From Polyangiales bacterium (lineage in GTDB: Bacteria > Myxococcota_A > Polyangia > Polyangiales > Houyiibacteriaceae): a DNA stretch of 64,000 nt. This document shows, piece after piece, positions 43,440 to 45,025 of the stretch. The stretch covers positions 2,387,153 to 2,451,152 of the forward strand of contig OZ245758.1 in assembly GCA_965227405.1 (NCBI GenBank). The letters are read 5' to 3'. The translations under genes and the position numbers were made by a program. The first letter of the stretch is position 1; each line of letters begins with the position of its first letter. The notes beneath the pieces were generated by a model that did no database searches, was not told the origin of the DNA, and saw only the letters and a program-made list of their open reading frames with translations.

Positions 43440-43479
43440 GCAAGAATCTCCTTTCAACAAAAGGGAAAACAAAGATTAC

Positions 43480-43851
43480 GGTTGTTGCCGCGCCCTTACG
43501 CGAGAAGCGTACACACGGTAAAAAACAAACCTCGCAAGTTTGCACTGTCGGTTCGAATCCGGCTCGGTCCACCGCGTCCTAGGACGCTGCAAACAGCTCG
43601 CGCTACAAAGCGAGAGCACTTCCCAAAGGTCGAACGAGCGCGAAGCGCTCGACGATCGGAGGGGGAACAAGCTCGGCGCTGAAAAGCGAGAGCACCTCCA
43701 AAGTTCGAACGAGCGCGCAAGCGCTCGACGATCGGAGGGGGGGACCCAGAGGGCTCTGCCCGATGGGGGGGGAGGACTTCAAGAAAGTCCTCCCAGAAAT
43801 CTGGGCCGAATAAACACATTCGTCGCTTTTACGACTTGTGCGGCAACAACC
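43480..43851 (+). ncRNA. helix-closed structured element (module 1) with a tRNA T-arm and two tandem ~75-nt hairpin-rich units
   Basis: GGTTGTTGCCGC (43480..43491) is the exact complement of GCGGCAACAACC (43840..43851). Inside are TACACAC (43510), the T-arm GTCGG-TTCGAAT-CCGGC (43547..43563) followed by TCGGTCC-ACC, a tandem repeat at 43595..43669 / 43670..43743, and a 9-bp hairpin GGAGGACTT/AAGTCCTCC. Confidence 0.35.
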
Positions 43852-43859
43852 TTATTTAC

Positions 43860-44004
43860 GCGCCTGTAGTTCAATTGGATAGAACGCCGTCGTCAAGACA
43901 GCTTCAGCAACTTACGCGGCTCCACTCGCGACTACTCTGCAAGCCTACACACGCATCGGGCTCATAACCCGGAGGTTACAGGTTCGAATCCTGTCGGGCG
44001 CTCC
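43860..44004 (+). tRNA. tRNA-Met(CAT)-like gene interrupted by a 69-nt insert in the 5' strand of the anticodon stem (module 2)
   Basis: GCGCCTG-TA-GTTC-AATTGGATA-GAAC-G-CC [insert 43889..43957] GGG-CTCATAA-CCCGG-AGGTT-ACAGG-TTCGAAT-CCTGT-CGGGCGC-T. The acceptor pairs over 7 bp (one T-G). The D, anticodon and T arms are canonical once the insert is removed. Confidence 0.45.
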
Positions 44005-44008
44005 TCTC

Positions 44009-44163
44009 GCACATCTCAAAACTATCGCCGGCCGCTACGCGGCCACAGCACACGACCTGCTGCCATCCTCTCGCCTCGGTAATGAGTACATTGCCTCGGT
44101 TCGCGGACGCACCATCTCGTGCACTCTGACGGCGTATCGACGGGCGCTAGTTTTGAGATGTGC
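44009..44163. mobile_element. MITE-like element, copy 2 (155 bp), inserted between tRNA-like modules 2 and 3
   Basis: GCACATCTCAAAACTATCGCC (44009..44029) pairs with 44143..44163 as a 21-bp TIR with one mismatch. Its interior is collinear with copy 1 at 22491..22653. Confidence 0.6.
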
Positions 44164-44179
44164 TTCGAATCGTGACCAC

Positions 44180-44290
44180 TTTTGAAGCGTACATACTTGG
44201 AGGTTCGAATCCTTCACTCCCCACCAGAGCTCTAAGCTCAATCACATTGGGGAGTTGGGCAAATGGCAAAGCCAACGCGTCGTAAAACGC
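44180..44290 (+). ncRNA. circularly permuted tRNA-like module (module 3)
   Basis: Order is T-arm GGAGG-TTCGAAT-CCTTC (44199..44215), ACTCCCC-ACCA (44216..44226), a 22-nt linker with hairpin GAGCT-CTA-AGCTC, then GGGGAGT (44249..44255, exact complement of ACTCCCC), TG, and D-arm GGCA-AATGGCA-AGCC. The closing helix is GCGT (44187..44190) with ACGC (44275..44278), extendable to TTTT/AAAA. Confidence 0.4.
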
Positions 44291-44336
44291 GTCTATCAAC
44301 GACCGCTTCACCAACTTACACGATTCAACAATTCAT

Positions 44337-44459
44337 CCCTCGCGATCACTGATCGGCTTACACACTGGCTAAACTGGGATAGGCAACAGACTCTTAATCT
44401 GTGATTTGTTGGTTCGAATCCAACGTGAACATCACCAGCCGATCGAACTTGCGTGAGGG
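44337..44459 (+). ncRNA. 123-nt YrlA-like tRNA mimic (module 4, anticodon-loop CTCTTAA)
   Basis: The leader pairs with the trailer: CCCTCGCG (44337..44344) with TGCGTGAGGG (44450..44459), and ATCGGC (44352..44357) with GCCGAT (44438..44443). The core has TACACAC, a D-arm-like segment with GG, ACAGA-CTCTTAA-TCTGT, and GTTGG-TTCGAAT-CCAAC. Confidence 0.5.
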
Positions 44460-44469
44460 TGCCAAATTT

Positions 44470-44576
44470 CGCGCGCGTCCTAACAACTGGGACTTACACA
44501 CTGGCCTTGAAAGCCAACGGATTGAAACTCCGTCCCCTGCAAAGGGAACACAACGTCCCGGAAACTCACGCGCGCT
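44470..44576 (+). ncRNA. 107-nt Y-RNA-like module (module 4.5) with D- and anticodon-arm look-alikes but no T-arm
   Basis: GCGCGCG (44471..44477) pairs with CGCGCGC (44569..44575), and GGGAC (44489..44493) with GTCCC (44555..44559). The core has TACACAC, GGC-CTTGAAA-GCC, ACGGA-TTGAAAC-TCCGT, and a CCCT-GCAA-AGGG hairpin. Confidence 0.4.
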
Positions 44577-44588
44577 ATTCAAATCACC

Positions 44589-44711
44589 CCCTCGCGATCA
44601 CCTGCGCGGCTTACACACTCGCCTAACGGTAAGGCAACAGACTTCAACTCTGTCGATGTTGGTTCGATTCCAACGTGAAACCAAACACAGCCGTTCGAAC
44701 TTGCGTGAGGG
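44589..44711 (+). ncRNA. 123-nt YrlA-like tRNA mimic (module 5, anticodon-loop CTTCAAC)
   Basis: Paralog of module 4. CCCTCGCG (44589..44596) pairs with TGCGTGAGGG (44702..44711). The core has TACACAC, TC, a perfect D-arm GCCT-AACGGTA-AGGC, A, ACAGA-CTTCAAC-TCTGT, CGAT, and GTTGG-TTCGATT-CCAAC. Confidence 0.5.
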
Positions 44712-44760
44712 AAGCTTCTGGTCGTCTTTCAGATGACCTTCGTCTCGGTCCCCGACTTCA

Positions 44761-44824
44761 TCGACGTACACACAATCGGATCCTGGGGGCGAAAGCCCTC
44801 TGCATCATTGCGTAGAACCGTCGA
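44761..44824 (+). ncRNA. small helix-closed module (module 6) with TACACAC and a GAAA-tetraloop hairpin
   Basis: TCGACG (44761..44766) pairs with CGTCGA (44819..44824). TACACAC is at 44767. Contains the hairpin GGGGC-GAAA-GCCCT. Confidence 0.3.
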
Positions 44825-44997
44825 CGTAACTTGACCGAGCGTTGATCTGCAGCGTTCGTCTAATGCCAGGATGCCGGCCCTGTTAGGCCGGAGACGCACG
44901 TTGGATTCGTGCACGCTGCGCCAAGGTTCTGCTTCTCGCACACACGAGAAGCGAATGTCCCCCAGTCGTTCGTGAACGCGAACGATCCAATCGCCAG

Positions 44998-45025
44998 AAA
45001 ACGCGTCTCTCCGGAGGCGCGTTTT
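44998..45025 (+). terminator. 12-bp hairpin flanked by A4/T4 (bidirectional-type terminator candidate) closing the RNA array
   Basis: AAAACGCGTCTC-TCCG-GAGGCGCGTTTT. Lies about 40 nt upstream of the Ro60-like start codon. Confidence 0.5.

What the first reader, a model, noticed from the sequence alone, without database searches (positions are those of the whole stretch)
43476..45025. Dense array of aberrant tRNA-like RNA modules immediately upstream of a Ro60 (TROVE-vWA) gene
About 1.5 kb lies between the small ORF ending at 43439 and the terminator hairpin at 44998..45025. It has no convincing ORF and is visibly more A/T-rich than its flanks. On the + strand it carries five tRNA T-arm cores: GGTTCGAATCC at 43550, 43981, 44202 and 44411, and GGTTCGATTCC at 44661. 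It also has four anticodon-arm look-alikes with 5-bp stems and 7-nt loops (CAT, CTT, GAA, TCA) and several D-arm look-alikes that keep the GG dinucleotide. Yet none of these forms an uninterrupted canonical cloverleaf. One is interrupted, one is circularly permuted, and two have the acceptor end replaced by a long leader-trailer helix. Bacterial Ro60 genes are known to sit beside Y RNAs whose effector domain mimics tRNA (YrlA class), so a Y-RNA identity is the conservative reading. Three things go beyond what I know to be described: the number of helix-closed modules (at least seven), the retention of complete anticodon arms, and the interrupted and permuted topologies.
Basis: partly seen in the sequence, partly recalled or inferred. 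Interest (0 to 1): 0.9.

Follow-up and report, generated by a model that had tools for sequence, protein, structure and literature searches.

The report
Array of tRNA-shaped Ro60 partner RNAs
The 1.6 kb gap holds eight or nine conserved, structured non-coding RNAs: each joins a Y-RNA-like stem to a tRNA-shaped domain, and all sit beside a very divergent Ro60-type ring protein, forming a widespread system that I could not find described.

Summary
Five T-loop cores lie on one strand, against 0.17 expected. There are four canonical anticodon arms, and no ORF in the interval has family support.

The downstream protein gets no Pfam TROVE hit. Its AlphaFold model nevertheless matches Ro60 structures over the full length (Foldseek E 1e-12).

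The RNAs are not decayed tRNAs. Three covariance models built here find hundreds of relatives, all upstream of, and on the strand of, orthologues of this protein. These occur in Cyanobacteria, Myxococcota, Acidobacteriota, Actinomycetota, Armatimonadota and huge phages. Base pairing is 95-97%, with compensatory changes in 22-32 pairs.

All modules share a two-part closing stem and a UACAYAC motif. They fall into topological classes:
- a tRNA whose acceptor stem continues into the stem, as in D. radiodurans Yrn1;
- a permuted form with the classic YrlA topology;
- in Myxococcota, a free-ended tRNA with the stem inserted between the D and anticodon arms, which has no precedent that I found.

The canonical YrlA Ro-binding motif is absent.

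The locus also conserves a 66-aa protein, an E1-like enzyme and two unknown proteins.

Verdict: a new variant of the Ro60/Y-RNA kind. Expression, binding and function are untested.

The parts
43239..43439 (+). Conserved 66-aa ORF (MIHVRFEG...RPEAVYG*). It is a possible ubiquitin-like or carrier protein, but its fold was not established.
   Evidence: tblastn finds it in 59 of 80 related loci, always 66 aa, at 50-80% identity. The alignment has 20 invariant columns and a C-terminal YG. There is no Pfam or PDB hit. hhalign against ubiquitin gives a probability of only 3.7%.
43477..43854 (+). Module A. A 15-bp closing helix is followed by an inner stem, UACACAC and a T arm (43546-43564). An acceptor-like stem is then closed by an insert of about 230 nt that contains a 76-nt tandem duplication (43595-43741). 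There is no D arm.
   Evidence: Inverted repeat I2, 43477-43491 with 43840-43854, 93% complementary. The MFE fold has z = -9.3 and shows the closing helix, T arm and acceptor-like stem. TRF reports the 76-nt repeat. The R1 match is weak, 21.7 bits.
43859..44007 (+). Module B1, the 'interrupted tRNA'. It has a 7-bp acceptor stem with free ends (GCGCCUG/CGGGCGC, then UCC) and a D arm. Next comes an inserted Y-type hairpin whose inner and outer stems are closed by a loop. This is followed by single-stranded UACACAC, an anticodon arm (CAU) and a T arm.
   Evidence: Model R2 scores 138.9 bits. RNAalifold on 6 MAFFT-aligned orthologues shows compensatory changes in 5 of 7 acceptor pairs. Rfam tRNA scores 28.9 bits on the 3' part. 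NCC follows the acceptor stem in 7 of 7 orthologues (sequences).
44009..44163 (+). Long imperfect hairpin between modules. Its role is unknown.
   Evidence: Inverted repeat I1 has 55-nt arms, 78% complementary. MFE is -62.8 kcal/mol, z = -5.0. No counterpart was identified in relatives.
44167..44329 (+). Module B2, the permuted (YrlA-topology) form. The order is outer stem (GAAUCGUG/CACGAUUC), inner stem (GAAGCG/CGCUUC), UACAUAC and T arm. Then come acceptor 3' strand ACUCCCC-A-CCA, a loop, acceptor 5' strand GGGGAGU, the D arm and an extra hairpin before the stem closes.
   Evidence: Model R3 scores 76.2 bits. The MFE fold reproduces this parse, z = -3.95. Class-wide covariation is 97.5% paired, and 7 of 7 closed-acceptor pairs covary.
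44335..44462 (+). Module C, type I. Outer stem, internal loop, inner stem and UACACAC as the acceptor 5' strand are followed by a D arm, an anticodon arm (CUU), a T arm and the closing strands.
   Evidence: Model R1 scores 105.9 bits. Rfam tRNA scores 36.2 bits. ARAGORN calls Lys-CTT. MFE z = -3.8.
44470..44579 (+). Module D, a type I variant. It has the same stems and UACACAC, a D-like arm and an anticodon arm (GAA). The T arm is replaced by a CCCU-GCAA-AGGG hairpin.
   Evidence: Model R1 scores 37.8 bits. MFE z = -5.2.
44587..44714 (+). Module E, type I, with anticodon loop CUUCAAC (UCA).
   Evidence: Model R1 scores 123.7 bits, the best match of all 81 sources. Rfam tRNA scores 47.4 bits. 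ARAGORN calls 'SeC' TCA.
44742..44844 (+). Module F, a stem-only Y-type RNA. Its stems are CUCGGUC/GACCGAG and UCGACG/CGUCGA, followed by UACACAC and a small hairpin instead of a tRNA body. The 5' GGUCCCCGA and 3' CUUGACC strands resemble the metazoan Ro-binding helix.
   Evidence: Model R1 scores 22.1 bits with the tRNA part deleted. MFE z = -2.1. Similar ~79-nt stem-only matches lie just before the gene in many Nostoc loci.
44849..44923 (+). It has a 7-bp acceptor stem GCAGCGU/ACGCUGC followed by GCCA, a 6-bp anticodon stem with a 6-nt loop, and a T loop UUGGAUU.
   Evidence: Model R1 matches its tRNA part at 27.2 bits. The MFE is a cloverleaf, z = -2.35. Neither ARAGORN nor Rfam calls it.
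44997..45026 (+). Terminator-like GC hairpin with a weak U tract, 40 nt before the start codon.
   Evidence: Inverted repeat I5 has 13-nt arms, 92% complementary. The terminator scan did not call it.
45067..46524 (+). Ro60-fold protein (helical-repeat ring plus vWA domain) of a divergent, very conserved family.
   Evidence: The AF2 model has pLDDT 80.9. The top 13 Foldseek PDB hits are all Ro60/TROVE over the full length, E 1e-12 to 3e-9, TM 0.60-0.67. phmmer against a phage Ro60 gives E 1e-4. Pfam finds only a weak VWA_2. More than 2400 homologues exist, at about 60% identity across phyla.
46647..47534 (+). Conserved unknown protein g2.
   Evidence: Found in 16 of 80 loci within 5 kb at 47-63% identity. 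No Pfam, PDB or PADLOC hit.
47539..48396 (+). Conserved unknown protein g3. The model shows beta-barrel (OB-like) repeats, a long helix, and a conserved Cys-containing C-terminal tail.
   Evidence: Found in 42 of 80 loci. The AF2 model has pLDDT 82 with a disordered tail. Foldseek gives only weak OB-fold similarities.
48532..49164 (+). E1-like (ThiF family) adenylating enzyme g4.
   Evidence: Pfam ThiF, E 4.5e-31. It matches the E1 part of the CBASS 'E1-E2' models in PADLOC, E 9e-19. Found in 35 of 80 loci within 5 kb.

Best explanation
**What it is.** The interval is a cluster of non-coding RNA genes on the + strand. It probably makes one or a few precursors together with the 66-aa ORF and the Ro60-like gene.

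**Shared core (shown).** Each module has the same elements:
- an outer helix of about 9 bp (5' ..CGYGC / GCRCG.. 3');
- an asymmetric internal loop (5' CCUAAC-like, 3' RACUU);
- an inner helix of 5-9 bp;
- the motif UACAYAC.

**Binding (inferred).** By analogy with Ro60 bound to Y RNA, this core is the docking site for the adjacent Ro60-fold ring protein.

**The tRNA-shaped domain (shown).** The distal part of each module is tRNA-shaped. The tRNA fold appears to be genuine:
- D-loop GG;
- T-loop U54, U55, C56 and A58;
- U8 and A14;
- a covarying 15:48 Levitt pair.

**Role of the domain (inferred).** As in YrlA and Yrn1, this domain would be the effector-binding or decoy end of the RNP.

**Three wirings of the same parts (shown).**
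- Type I: the stem extends the acceptor stem (modules C, D, E).
- Permuted: the stem takes the place of the anticodon/variable region and the acceptor stem is closed by a loop (A, B2).
- Interrupted: the acceptor ends are free and the stem is a closed hairpin inserted after the D arm (B1).

**Processing (inferred).** Modules that keep a 7-bp acceptor stem followed by NCC(A) (B1, B2, G) are probably cut by RNase P and given CCA, as was shown for M. smegmatis YrlA.

**A panel of mimics.** The anticodon triplet varies freely while U33 and R37 are kept. The array therefore offers a panel of different tRNA look-alikes to whatever reads anticodon loops.

**Not established.** The downstream partners (g3, the E1-like enzyme, the 66-aa protein) and the physiological role.
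For: **Conserved structure.**
- Type I: 7 MAFFT-aligned sequences from 2 phyla give 21 of 32 pairs with compensatory changes.
- Model R1 finds 347 matches, of which the 300 listed are all on the gene's strand. About 140 are full length at over 75 bits.
- On 148 distinct type I sequences, 95.4% of cells are paired and 32 of 37 pairs change on both sides. Controls with partners slid by 1-3 columns give 36-45%.
- Permuted class: 74 matches at E < 1e-12, 97.5% paired, 22 of 28 pairs change on both sides, and all 7 closed-acceptor pairs covary.
- Interrupted class: 7 strong matches in all 6 Myxococcota loci, with 5 of 7 acceptor pairs compensatory.

**tRNA fold.**
- 133 of 150 type I modules have a 7-nt anticodon loop, with Y32 in 127, U33 in 122 and R37 in 125 of those 133.
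- T-loop positions 54, 56 and 58 are over 97% conserved.
- The 15:48 pair is A:U 73, U:A 18 and G:C 7 of 116. The canonical A:U and G:C combinations total 80, against 51.7 expected if independent.

**Link to the protein.**
- The protein has the Ro60 fold.
- An RNA-first search of metagenomes returned 80 loci. Of the 24 with at least 4 kb downstream of the motif, 22 have the gene. In all 45 loci where the gene was found it is on the motif's strand.
- Seven phage contigs whose protein is only 43-48% identical still carry both RNA classes upstream.
- UACAYAC occurs a median of 4 times in the 3.5 kb upstream on the + strand, against 0.4-0.6 background.

**Precedent.** YrlA and Yrn1 lie within 4 kb of rsr on the same strand, carry tRNA-like domains, and one is cut by RNase P and receives CCA (PMC4201824).
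Against: - There is no expression, processing or binding evidence of any kind.
- The canonical Ro-binding motif GNCGAAN0-1G is not at the 5' strand of any stem. Docking on this stem is therefore an analogy, not a homology.
- Sequence-level homology of the protein to Ro60 is marginal. There is no Pfam TROVE hit, an alignment profile finds nothing in the PDB, and phmmer gives only E 1e-4.
- No sigma-70-like promoter was found, and the closing terminator hairpin is weak.
- Alignments A3 and A10 were fitted to the models, which inflates pairing percentages. The MAFFT-based folds do not have this bias but are small.
- Modules A, F and G match the models only weakly.
Confidence: 0.75

Rival explanations
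1. These are simply ordinary YrlA/YrlB Y RNAs of an ordinary Rsr (Ro60) orthologue, so nothing goes beyond what was described in 2014.
For: - They are in the same place and on the same strand relative to a Ro60-fold gene.
- Module B2 has exactly the YrlA order of arms.
- UACAYAC fits the conserved YUAY of YrlA.
- Several Y RNAs per locus are known.
Against: - The protein family gets no Pfam TROVE hit, and sources name it only 'vWA domain-containing' or 'hypothetical'. It shares 12-17% identity with solved Ro60 structures, yet it is about 60% identical within itself across phyla. It would likely have escaped the GenBank TROVE-annotation criterion used in 2014.
- The defining GNCGAAN0-1G motif is absent from the stems.
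- No Rfam family other than tRNA matches.
- Two of the three classes have a different topology.
- The conserved partners are a 66-aa protein and an E1-like enzyme, not RtcB/RtcA.
Confidence: 0.1
2. The type I and free-ended modules are real, perhaps stress-induced, decoding tRNAs (including suppressors). They would be made from unusual precursors with paired leader and trailer, like a supplementary tRNA operon.
For: - Rfam tRNA scores reach 60 bits over the full model in cyanobacterial copies.
- U33 and R37 are kept, and the tertiary pairs are kept.
- B1 and G have 7-bp acceptor stems followed by NCC(A).
- Long canonical tRNA arrays lie just upstream in several cyanobacteria.
Against: - The acceptor 5' strand is the same sequence (UACAYAC, U1) whatever the anticodon. 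This is incompatible with recognition by many different synthetases.
- Anticodons include CUA, UUA, UCA and many A34 triplets.
- Type I has no conserved NCCA.
- The closing stems covary, so they are selected as part of the mature or functional RNA.
- B1 carries a conserved ~65-nt insert in the tRNA core.
Confidence: 0.07
3. The array is a cis-acting leader that controls expression of the Ro60-like mRNA, for example by attenuation or by sensing tRNA-binding factors.
For: - The modules lie directly upstream on the same strand.
- A hairpin with a short U tract precedes the start codon.
- A stem-only module sits 70-150 nt before the gene in many loci.
Against: - Modules also lie upstream of, and between, other genes of the locus, including before the 66-aa ORF and downstream of the operon.
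- There are 3-9 independent, separately closed modules per locus.
- The metagenome matches show the motif at variable distances from the gene.
- Precedent Y RNAs are trans-acting.
Confidence: 0.05
4. The modules are decayed remnants of a former tRNA gene cluster and have no function.
For: None forms a canonical cloverleaf that ARAGORN and Rfam accept in full. GC is lower than in the flanks.
Against: - Non-tRNA helices are conserved with compensatory changes across five phyla and phages.
- 95-97% of pairs are intact.
- Linkage to one gene family is strict.
Confidence: 0.01

Closest known systems
YrlA (bacterial Y RNA with tRNA-like domain; Salmonella Typhimurium, Mycobacterium smegmatis, mycobacteriophages; Chen et al. 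2014, PMC4201824)
   Same: - It is encoded within a few kb upstream of a Ro60-fold gene on the same strand.
- The 5' and 3' ends form a stem.
- A YUAY-type motif leads into a T arm, a closed acceptor-like hairpin and a D arm. This is exactly the layout of module B2 and of 74 relatives.
- The M. smegmatis copy has a 7-bp acceptor stem that RNase P cuts and that receives CCA. B2 encodes ACUCCCC-A-CCA.
- Several Y RNAs occur per locus, and the system is also present in phages.
   Different: - The GNCGAAN0-1G Ro-binding motif is absent and is replaced by a CGYGCCC / RACUUGYGCG core.
- The partner protein is a different, sequence-unrecognisable Ro60 family.
- The neighbours are a 66-aa protein and an E1-like enzyme rather than RtcB/RtcA.
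- Two further topologies coexist in the same array.
- Arrays reach 7-9 modules.
Yrn1 of Deinococcus radiodurans (Chen et al. 2000, 2013, 2014)
   Same: The Ro-binding stem formed by the RNA ends takes the place of the acceptor stem. The stem-loop between the D-like region and the T arm occupies the anticodon-arm position (PMC4201824). This is the orientation of the type I modules C, D and E.
   Different: - Yrn1 has only partial D-loop features, a 6-nt 'anticodon' loop and no variable region.
- Type I here is a near-complete tRNA: a 4-bp D stem with GG, a 7-nt loop with U33 and R37, a 5-nt variable region and a covarying Levitt pair. It scores up to 60 bits on the Rfam tRNA model.
Metazoan Y RNAs bound to Ro60 (Stein et al. 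2005; PDB 1YVP)
   Same: - A terminal stem with a conserved bulged or asymmetric region serves as the protein-binding site.
- The 3' strand motif CUUG followed by a helix is shared (metazoan CUUGAC, here ACUUGYGCG).
- Module F even has GGUCCCCGA / CUUGACC.
   Different: Metazoan Y RNAs have no tRNA-like domain. The 5' strand motif GGUCCGA is not conserved here. Binding is untested here.
Circularly permuted and split tRNA genes (Cyanidioschyzon merolae, Nanoarchaeum; my own knowledge, not tested here)
   Same: The 3' half of a tRNA (T arm, acceptor 3' strand, CCA) is encoded before the 5' half (acceptor 5' strand, D arm), as in B2 and A.
   Different: Those genes are processed through a circular intermediate into ordinary decoding tRNAs. 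Here the break point carries a conserved protein-binding-type stem, and there is no sign of a bulge-helix-bulge splicing motif.

Membership tests
Bacterial Y RNA, YrlA class (Chen et al. 2014) | Encoded within about 4 kb of a Ro60 orthologue, on the same strand | tested here: met
   - The modules lie 140-1590 nt upstream of 45067 on the + strand.
- The same holds in 80 genome loci and 7 phage loci.
- An RNA-first metagenome search finds the gene in 22 of 24 loci that have enough flank.
Bacterial Y RNA, YrlA class (Chen et al. 2014) | GNCGAAN0-1G motif near the 5' end (proposed Rsr contact) | tested here: not met
   - In the interval the pattern occurs on the + strand only at 43629 (inside the insert of module A) and at 44788 (the hairpin loop of module F).
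- It is never in the 5' strand of a stem.
- It is not enriched in the window: 94 matches against 82 expected.
- The conserved 5' strand is instead ..CGYGCCCUAAC...
Bacterial Y RNA, YrlA class (Chen et al. 2014) | Order stem, YUAY, (V hairpin), T arm, closed acceptor-like hairpin, D arm, stem | tested here: met
   This is met for module B2 and 73 relatives. It is not the layout of modules C, D, E (type I) or B1 (interrupted).
Bacterial Y RNA, YrlA class (Chen et al. 2014) | tRNA tertiary interactions can form, including a covarying 15:48 Levitt pair | tested here: met
   Tested on type I:
- The 15:48 pair is A:U 73, U:A 18 and G:C 7 of 116.
- A14 is present in 114 of 116.
- U8 is nearly invariant.
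- T54, C56 and A58 are over 97% conserved.
Bacterial Y RNA, YrlA class (Chen et al. 2014) | Bound by Ro60/Rsr; carries pseudouridine 55 and dihydrouridine | not testable with these tools
   This needs immunoprecipitation and modification mapping.
Bacterial Y RNA, YrlA class (Chen et al. 2014) | Detectable similarity to published YrlA sequences or models | not tested
Rfam 15 gave no match other than tRNA, even at E up to 10.
Ro60 / TROVE protein family | Ring of helical repeats followed by a vWA domain (Ro60 fold) | tested here: met
   The AF2 model has pLDDT 80.9 and pTM 0.70. The 13 best PDB matches are all Ro60/TROVE over about 500 columns, E 1.4e-12 to 3e-9, TM 0.60-0.67. The next matches are isolated vWA domains.
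Ro60 / TROVE protein family | Sequence match to the TROVE family model | tested here: not met
   - Pfam gives only VWA_2, at 21.8 bits and below its cut-off.
- NCBIfam gives nothing.
- A 28-sequence profile finds nothing in the PDB at E 0.01.
- Single-sequence phmmer reaches the phage phiLo TROVE protein at E 1.2e-4.
tRNA (Rfam RF00005) | Score at or above the gathering threshold with a complete cloverleaf | tested here: inconclusive
   - Modules C and E pass (36.2 and 47.4 bits), but only over model positions 5-66.
- B1 scores 28.9 bits against 29.
- A, B2, D, F and G fail.
- Some cyanobacterial relatives match positions 1-71 at up to 60 bits.
tRNA (Rfam RF00005) | Acceptor stem and discriminator specific to the amino acid implied by the anticodon; 3' NCCA | tested here: not met
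   In type I the acceptor 5' strand is UACAYAC in nearly all of the 150 modules, whichever of the 34 anticodons they carry, and no NCCA is conserved. B1 and G do have NCC(A) after a 7-bp stem.

The most novel reading that the evidence does not exclude
The locus may encode a previously unrecognised RNP system. A Ro60-like ring would hold a panel of tRNA mimics with freely varying anticodon loops. These would act as baits or sensors for factors that attack or read tRNA anticodon loops, such as anticodon nucleases, phage or toxin enzymes, or translational stress.

This sensing would be wired to an E1-like enzyme that activates the C-terminal glycine of the 66-aa protein. The activated protein would then either be conjugated (to a protein, or even to the CCA end of the free-ended mimics) or serve as a thiocarboxylate donor that modifies the mimics.

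Two observations would fit a role in conflicts over the tRNA pool: the system occurs in huge phages, and in several cyanobacteria it lies next to supernumerary tRNA arrays.
Probability: 0.12. Interest if true: 0.92.

Novelty: new variant of a known kind. Interest (0 to 1): 0.77.

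Why it matters
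Ro60 and Y RNAs are conserved from bacteria to humans, and Ro60 is a major autoantigen. What the RNA's effector end recruits is known in only one or two bacteria.

This locus reveals a second Ro60-fold family. It is large (over 2400 sequence clusters) and very conserved, yet sequence annotation misses it. Its RNA partners can be recognised by a simple motif.

These RNAs show that one protein-binding stem can be grafted onto a tRNA body at three different positions. That gives a natural experiment on how Ro60-type proteins present tRNA mimics.

The constant company of a 66-aa protein and an E1-like enzyme points to an effector pathway different from PNPase or RtcB. So does the system's presence in huge phages and beside cyanobacterial tRNA arrays.

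On the practical side, these modules are miscalled as tRNA-Pyl, tRNA-SeC, suppressor or undetermined tRNAs by gene finders. A covariance model would clean up annotation in hundreds of genomes.

Tried and rejected
1. **Rfam.** At the gathering threshold and at E up to 10, only tRNA matched, with no Y RNA or other family.
2. **g3 as an E2-like enzyme.** I suspected this from a conserved H...GICL motif. The AF2 model leaves that tail disordered, and Foldseek finds only weak OB-fold similarities, so the idea is not supported.
3. **The 66-aa protein as a ubiquitin-like or ThiS-like protein.**
   - There is no Pfam or PDB hit.
   - hhalign gives a probability of 0.2% against ThiS and 3.7% against ubiquitin.
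   - It stays a guess based on size, the C-terminal Gly and the E1 neighbour.
4. **g2.** No family or PDB relative was found.
5. **PADLOC.** Only the E1 part of the CBASS E1-E2 models matched g4. No known defence system was recognised.
6. **Promoter and terminator scan.** It found no sigma-70-type promoter and did not call the 44997 hairpin.
7. **Supplementary YrlA alignments.** Those of Chen et al. 2014 are not held, so a direct model-to-model comparison with YrlA could not be made.
8. **Literature.** Eight full-text searches found no description of this protein family, of its RNAs, or of a Ro60 / E1 / small-protein operon. The tRNA L-array paper does not mention the neighbour.
9. **Model R2 outside Myxococcota.** It gave only ~50-bit matches that span the tail of one permuted module and the head of the next. 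I do not count these as interrupted-class members.
10. **Pairing of UACAYAC in B1.** I looked for a partner segment after the D arm and found no convincing or consistent one.

Full report
**1. Observation**

The interval between the small ORF ending at 43439 and the gene starting at 45067 was read directly.
- GGTTCGAWTCC occurs five times in the 64 kb window, all on the + strand and all in this interval: 43550, 43981, 44202, 44411 and 44661. Shuffles give 0.17 expected.
- ARAGORN calls two odd tRNAs, Lys-CTT and 'SeC'-TCA.
- Rfam's tRNA model matches the same two, but only over positions 5-66. A third region scores 28.9 bits against a threshold of 29. No other Rfam family matches, even at E up to 10.
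- GC drops to 0.50-0.58 from 0.60-0.66 in the flanks.
- The mechanical ORFs in the interval have no family support.

**2. The downstream gene**

The 485-aa product of 45067-46524 has only a sub-threshold VWA_2 Pfam hit and no TROVE hit. NCBIfam finds nothing. phmmer reaches a phage TROVE protein at E 1e-4, and a 28-sequence profile finds nothing in the PDB.

Its AlphaFold model (pLDDT 80.9) is nevertheless a full-length match to Ro60. The 13 best Foldseek hits are X. laevis and human Ro60, D. radiodurans Rsr and the phage phiLo Ro60. They score E 1.4e-12 to 3e-9 and TM 0.60-0.67 over about 500 columns at 12-17% identity. After them come isolated vWA domains only.

The family is large and unusually conserved. 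It has more than 2400 clusters and stays 59-64% identical to the window protein in Cyanobacteria, Acidobacteriota, Actinomycetota and Armatimonadota. Sources name it only 'vWA domain-containing' or 'hypothetical'. The gene is therefore Ro60 by fold, but from a family that sequence annotation does not recognise as TROVE.

**3. Anatomy of the array**

Repeat finding, folding and comparison with relatives show that every module shares one core:
- an outer helix;
- an asymmetric internal loop whose 3' strand reads RACUUG;
- an inner helix;
- the motif YUACAYAC. It occurs 7 times on the + strand here and never on the - strand of the window.

What differs between modules is how a tRNA body is attached to that core.
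- **C (44335-44462) and E (44587-44714).** These are near-complete tRNAs. Their acceptor stem starts with UACACAC and continues into the core stems.
- **D (44470-44579).** Like C and E, but with the T arm replaced by a small hairpin.
- **B2 (44167-44329).** This is permuted. After the core come the T arm, ACUCCCC-A-CCA, a loop, GGGGAGU, the D arm and a return to the core.
- **A (43477-43854).** A giant version of the permuted form. A 15-bp helix closes it, and an insert of about 230 nt in the acceptor loop includes a 76-nt tandem duplication.
- **B1 (43859-44007).** The reverse arrangement. A 7-bp acceptor stem has free ends and is followed by UCC. The core is a closed hairpin inserted between the D arm and the anticodon arm.
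- **F (44742-44844).** The core alone.
- **G (44849-44923).**

A 155-nt hairpin (44009-44163) separates B1 from B2.

**4. Conservation**

Relatives of the protein were located in 80 genome contigs and in contigs found by exact protein look-up. The Myxococcota relatives at 68-81% identity carry recognisable orthologues of B1, B2 and C/E, with different stem sequences and different anticodons.

- **Type I.** Seven MAFFT-aligned sequences gave a consensus with 21 of 32 pairs showing compensatory changes.
  - Model R1 found 347 matches at E < 0.01 in 81 sources. Every one of the 300 listed is on the gene's strand, and about 140 are full length at over 75 bits.
  - On 148 distinct sequences, 95.4% of cells pair and 32 of 37 pairs change on both sides. 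No shuffle reaches this, and sliding the partner by 1-3 columns gives 36-45%.
- **Permuted class.** This was aligned from five phyla.
  - RNAalifold shows all seven pairs of the closed acceptor stem covarying.
  - Model R3 finds 74 matches at E < 1e-12, with 97.5% pairing and 22 of 28 pairs changing on both sides.
- **Interrupted class.**
  - It has strong matches (79-147 bits) only in the six Myxococcota loci, seven copies in all.
  - Five of seven acceptor pairs are compensatory.
  - NCC follows the acceptor stem in all seven.

A3 and A10 were fitted to the models, which favours pairing. The small MAFFT-based alignments do not share that bias.

**5. Are the tRNA bodies real tRNA folds?**

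Among 150 type I modules:
- 133 have a 7-nt anticodon loop, with Y32 in 127, U33 in 122 and R37 in 125 of those 133.
- T54, C56 and A58 are over 97% conserved.
- A14 and U8 are nearly invariant.
- The 15:48 tertiary pair covaries: A:U 73, U:A 18 and G:C 7 of 116.

In contrast, the anticodon triplet is the most variable part of the loop, at 1.6-1.9 bits per position. It takes 34 values, including CUA, UUA, UCA and many A34 triplets. The acceptor 5' strand is the same UACAYAC in nearly all of them, whatever the anticodon. This argues against decoding tRNAs charged by cognate synthetases. It argues for tRNA-shaped ligands read by one common partner at the acceptor/core end and presented with diverse anticodon loops.

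**6. Linkage of RNA and protein**

- UACAYAC occurs a median of 4 times (range 0-9) in the 3.5 kb upstream of the gene on its strand, against 0.4-0.6 on the other strand or downstream. The window's 7 is at the high end.
- A search that started from the RNA used the exact motif GCCCTAAC-N5-9-AGCTTACATAC on metagenome contigs and returned 80 loci.
  - Sixty-five contain at least one protein of the system.
  - Of the 24 with at least 4 kb downstream of the motif, 22 contain the Ro60-like gene.
  - In all 45 loci where the gene was found it is on the motif's strand.
- A 595-kb uncultured phage and six IMG/VR contigs (37-390 kb) encode homologues at 43-48% identity.
  - All seven contigs carry matches to models R1 and R3 upstream of the gene; strong type I matches (68-76 bits) occur in six and clear permuted matches (54-74 bits) in four.
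  - The 66-aa protein, g3 and the E1-like enzyme were checked, and found, only in the 595-kb phage.

**7. Gene context**

- The 66-aa ORF (43239-43439) is found in 59 of 80 loci. It is always exactly 66 aa and always ends RPEAVYG.
- g3 (47539-48396) is in 42 loci, the ThiF/E1-like g4 (48532-49164) in 35, and g2 in 16 within the 5 kb fetched.
- g4 matches the E1 part of the CBASS E1-E2 models.
- g3 models as beta-barrel repeats with weak OB-fold resemblance, and my E2 idea was not supported.
- The 66-aa protein could not be assigned to any fold family.

These partners differ from the RtcB/RtcA or PNPase context of known bacterial Ro60.

**8. Comparison with what is known**

Chen et al. 2014 (PMC4201824) described YrlA. 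It has a terminal stem with GNCGAAN0-1G, a YUAY motif, a T arm, a closed acceptor-like hairpin and a D arm, and it lies within 4 kb of rsr on the same strand. The M. smegmatis copy has a 7-bp acceptor stem that RNase P cuts and that receives CCA.

They also noted that D. radiodurans Yrn1 has the opposite orientation, with an anticodon-like arm between the D-like and T arms. They found few YrlA RNAs in cyanobacteria and delta-proteobacteria.

Against that background:
- B2 and A have the YrlA topology.
- C, D and E have the Yrn1 orientation, but as near-complete tRNAs.
- B1 has no described counterpart that I found.

The GNCGAAN0-1G motif is not in any stem here. I could not run published YrlA sequences against my models because the supplements are not held. 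Eight literature searches found no description of this family.

**9. Mechanism, with what is shown and what is inferred**

Shown:
- a conserved multi-class family of structured RNAs with a common core and genuine tRNA-type folds;
- tight linkage of these RNAs to a Ro60-fold protein gene.

Inferred by analogy with Ro60 bound to Y RNA (Stein 2005; Chen 2013, 2014):
- the core docks on the ring protein;
- the tRNA-shaped end recruits or decoys a tRNA-binding factor;
- modules with a 7-bp acceptor stem and NCC(A) are processed by RNase P and the CCA-adding enzyme.

Speculative:
- the panel of anticodon loops serves as bait for anticodon-directed enzymes;
- the E1-like enzyme and the 66-aa protein act on or through the RNP.

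**10. Verdict**

The finding is a new variant of a known kind, the Ro60/Y-RNA ribonucleoprotein. It has a new protein family, a new binding core, a new topology and a new gene context. There is no experimental evidence yet.

Noticed in passing
L012 78-2092, L074 117-2518, L075 75-2481, L081 174-2197 (also L035 156-394, L071 30-2090): In several cyanobacteria a long array of 13-19 canonical tRNA genes lies 2-4 kb upstream of the Ro60-like locus on the same strand. It resembles the horizontally spread 'L-array' tRNA operons induced by translational stress (PMC8421152). That paper does not mention this neighbour.
   Followed up: partly
L085 (LR756511.1, 595-kb uncultured phage) and L086-L091 (IMG/VR contigs of 37-390 kb): Huge-phage contigs carry the Ro60-like gene (43-48% identity) with type I and permuted RNA modules upstream. 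In L085 the 66-aa protein, g3 and the E1-like enzyme are also present; the IMG/VR contigs were not checked for them.
   Followed up: yes
It has a 7-bp acceptor stem followed by GCCA, a 6-nt anticodon loop and a T loop UUGGAUU. ARAGORN and Rfam do not call it.
   Followed up: partly
window 43595-43741: A 76-nt tandem duplication (1.9 copies, 90% identical) lies inside the giant acceptor loop of module A. Each copy folds into hairpins, and runs of 7-8 G follow at 43735-43775.
   Followed up: no
window 44009-44163: A 155-nt imperfect hairpin lies between modules B1 and B2 (55-nt arms, MFE z = -5.0). Its role is unknown, and no counterpart was recognised in relatives.
   Followed up: no
L036 2716-2930 (Nostoc sp. 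LEGE 12450): By reading the sequence only, a type I module appears nested inside a second, outer tRNA-like structure. Acceptor strand GGGUCUG and a D arm come before it, and a T arm and CAGAUCC come after it.
   Followed up: no
L036 4856-4934 and the same position in many Nostoc loci; L061 7507-7716, L062 6299-6508, L059 8628-8837: Stem-only modules of about 79 nt sit 70-150 nt before the Ro60-like start codon. Further matches of about 210 nt lie downstream, inside or after the operon.
   Followed up: no
L036 3655-4380, L010 4080-4495: In cyanobacteria, additional ORFs are interleaved with the RNA modules between the 66-aa gene and the Ro60-like gene. I did not identify them.
   Followed up: no
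L003 5735-5850: A (GGCTTC)n hexanucleotide microsatellite of about 110 nt lies between the RNA array and the Ro60-like gene in one Myxococcota relative.
   Followed up: no
window 42600-43013; L001 2798-3160: A SUI1/YciH-type translation initiation factor gene lies shortly upstream of the locus, both in the window and in the closest relative. This may be mere local synteny.
   Followed up: no
window 39797-41953 and 49997-50950: Flanking genes encode a protein with nine disintegrin repeats and a protein with MopE-type metal-binding repeats. The window's contig is about 9.07 Mb. Both fit a large myxobacterial genome.
   Followed up: no
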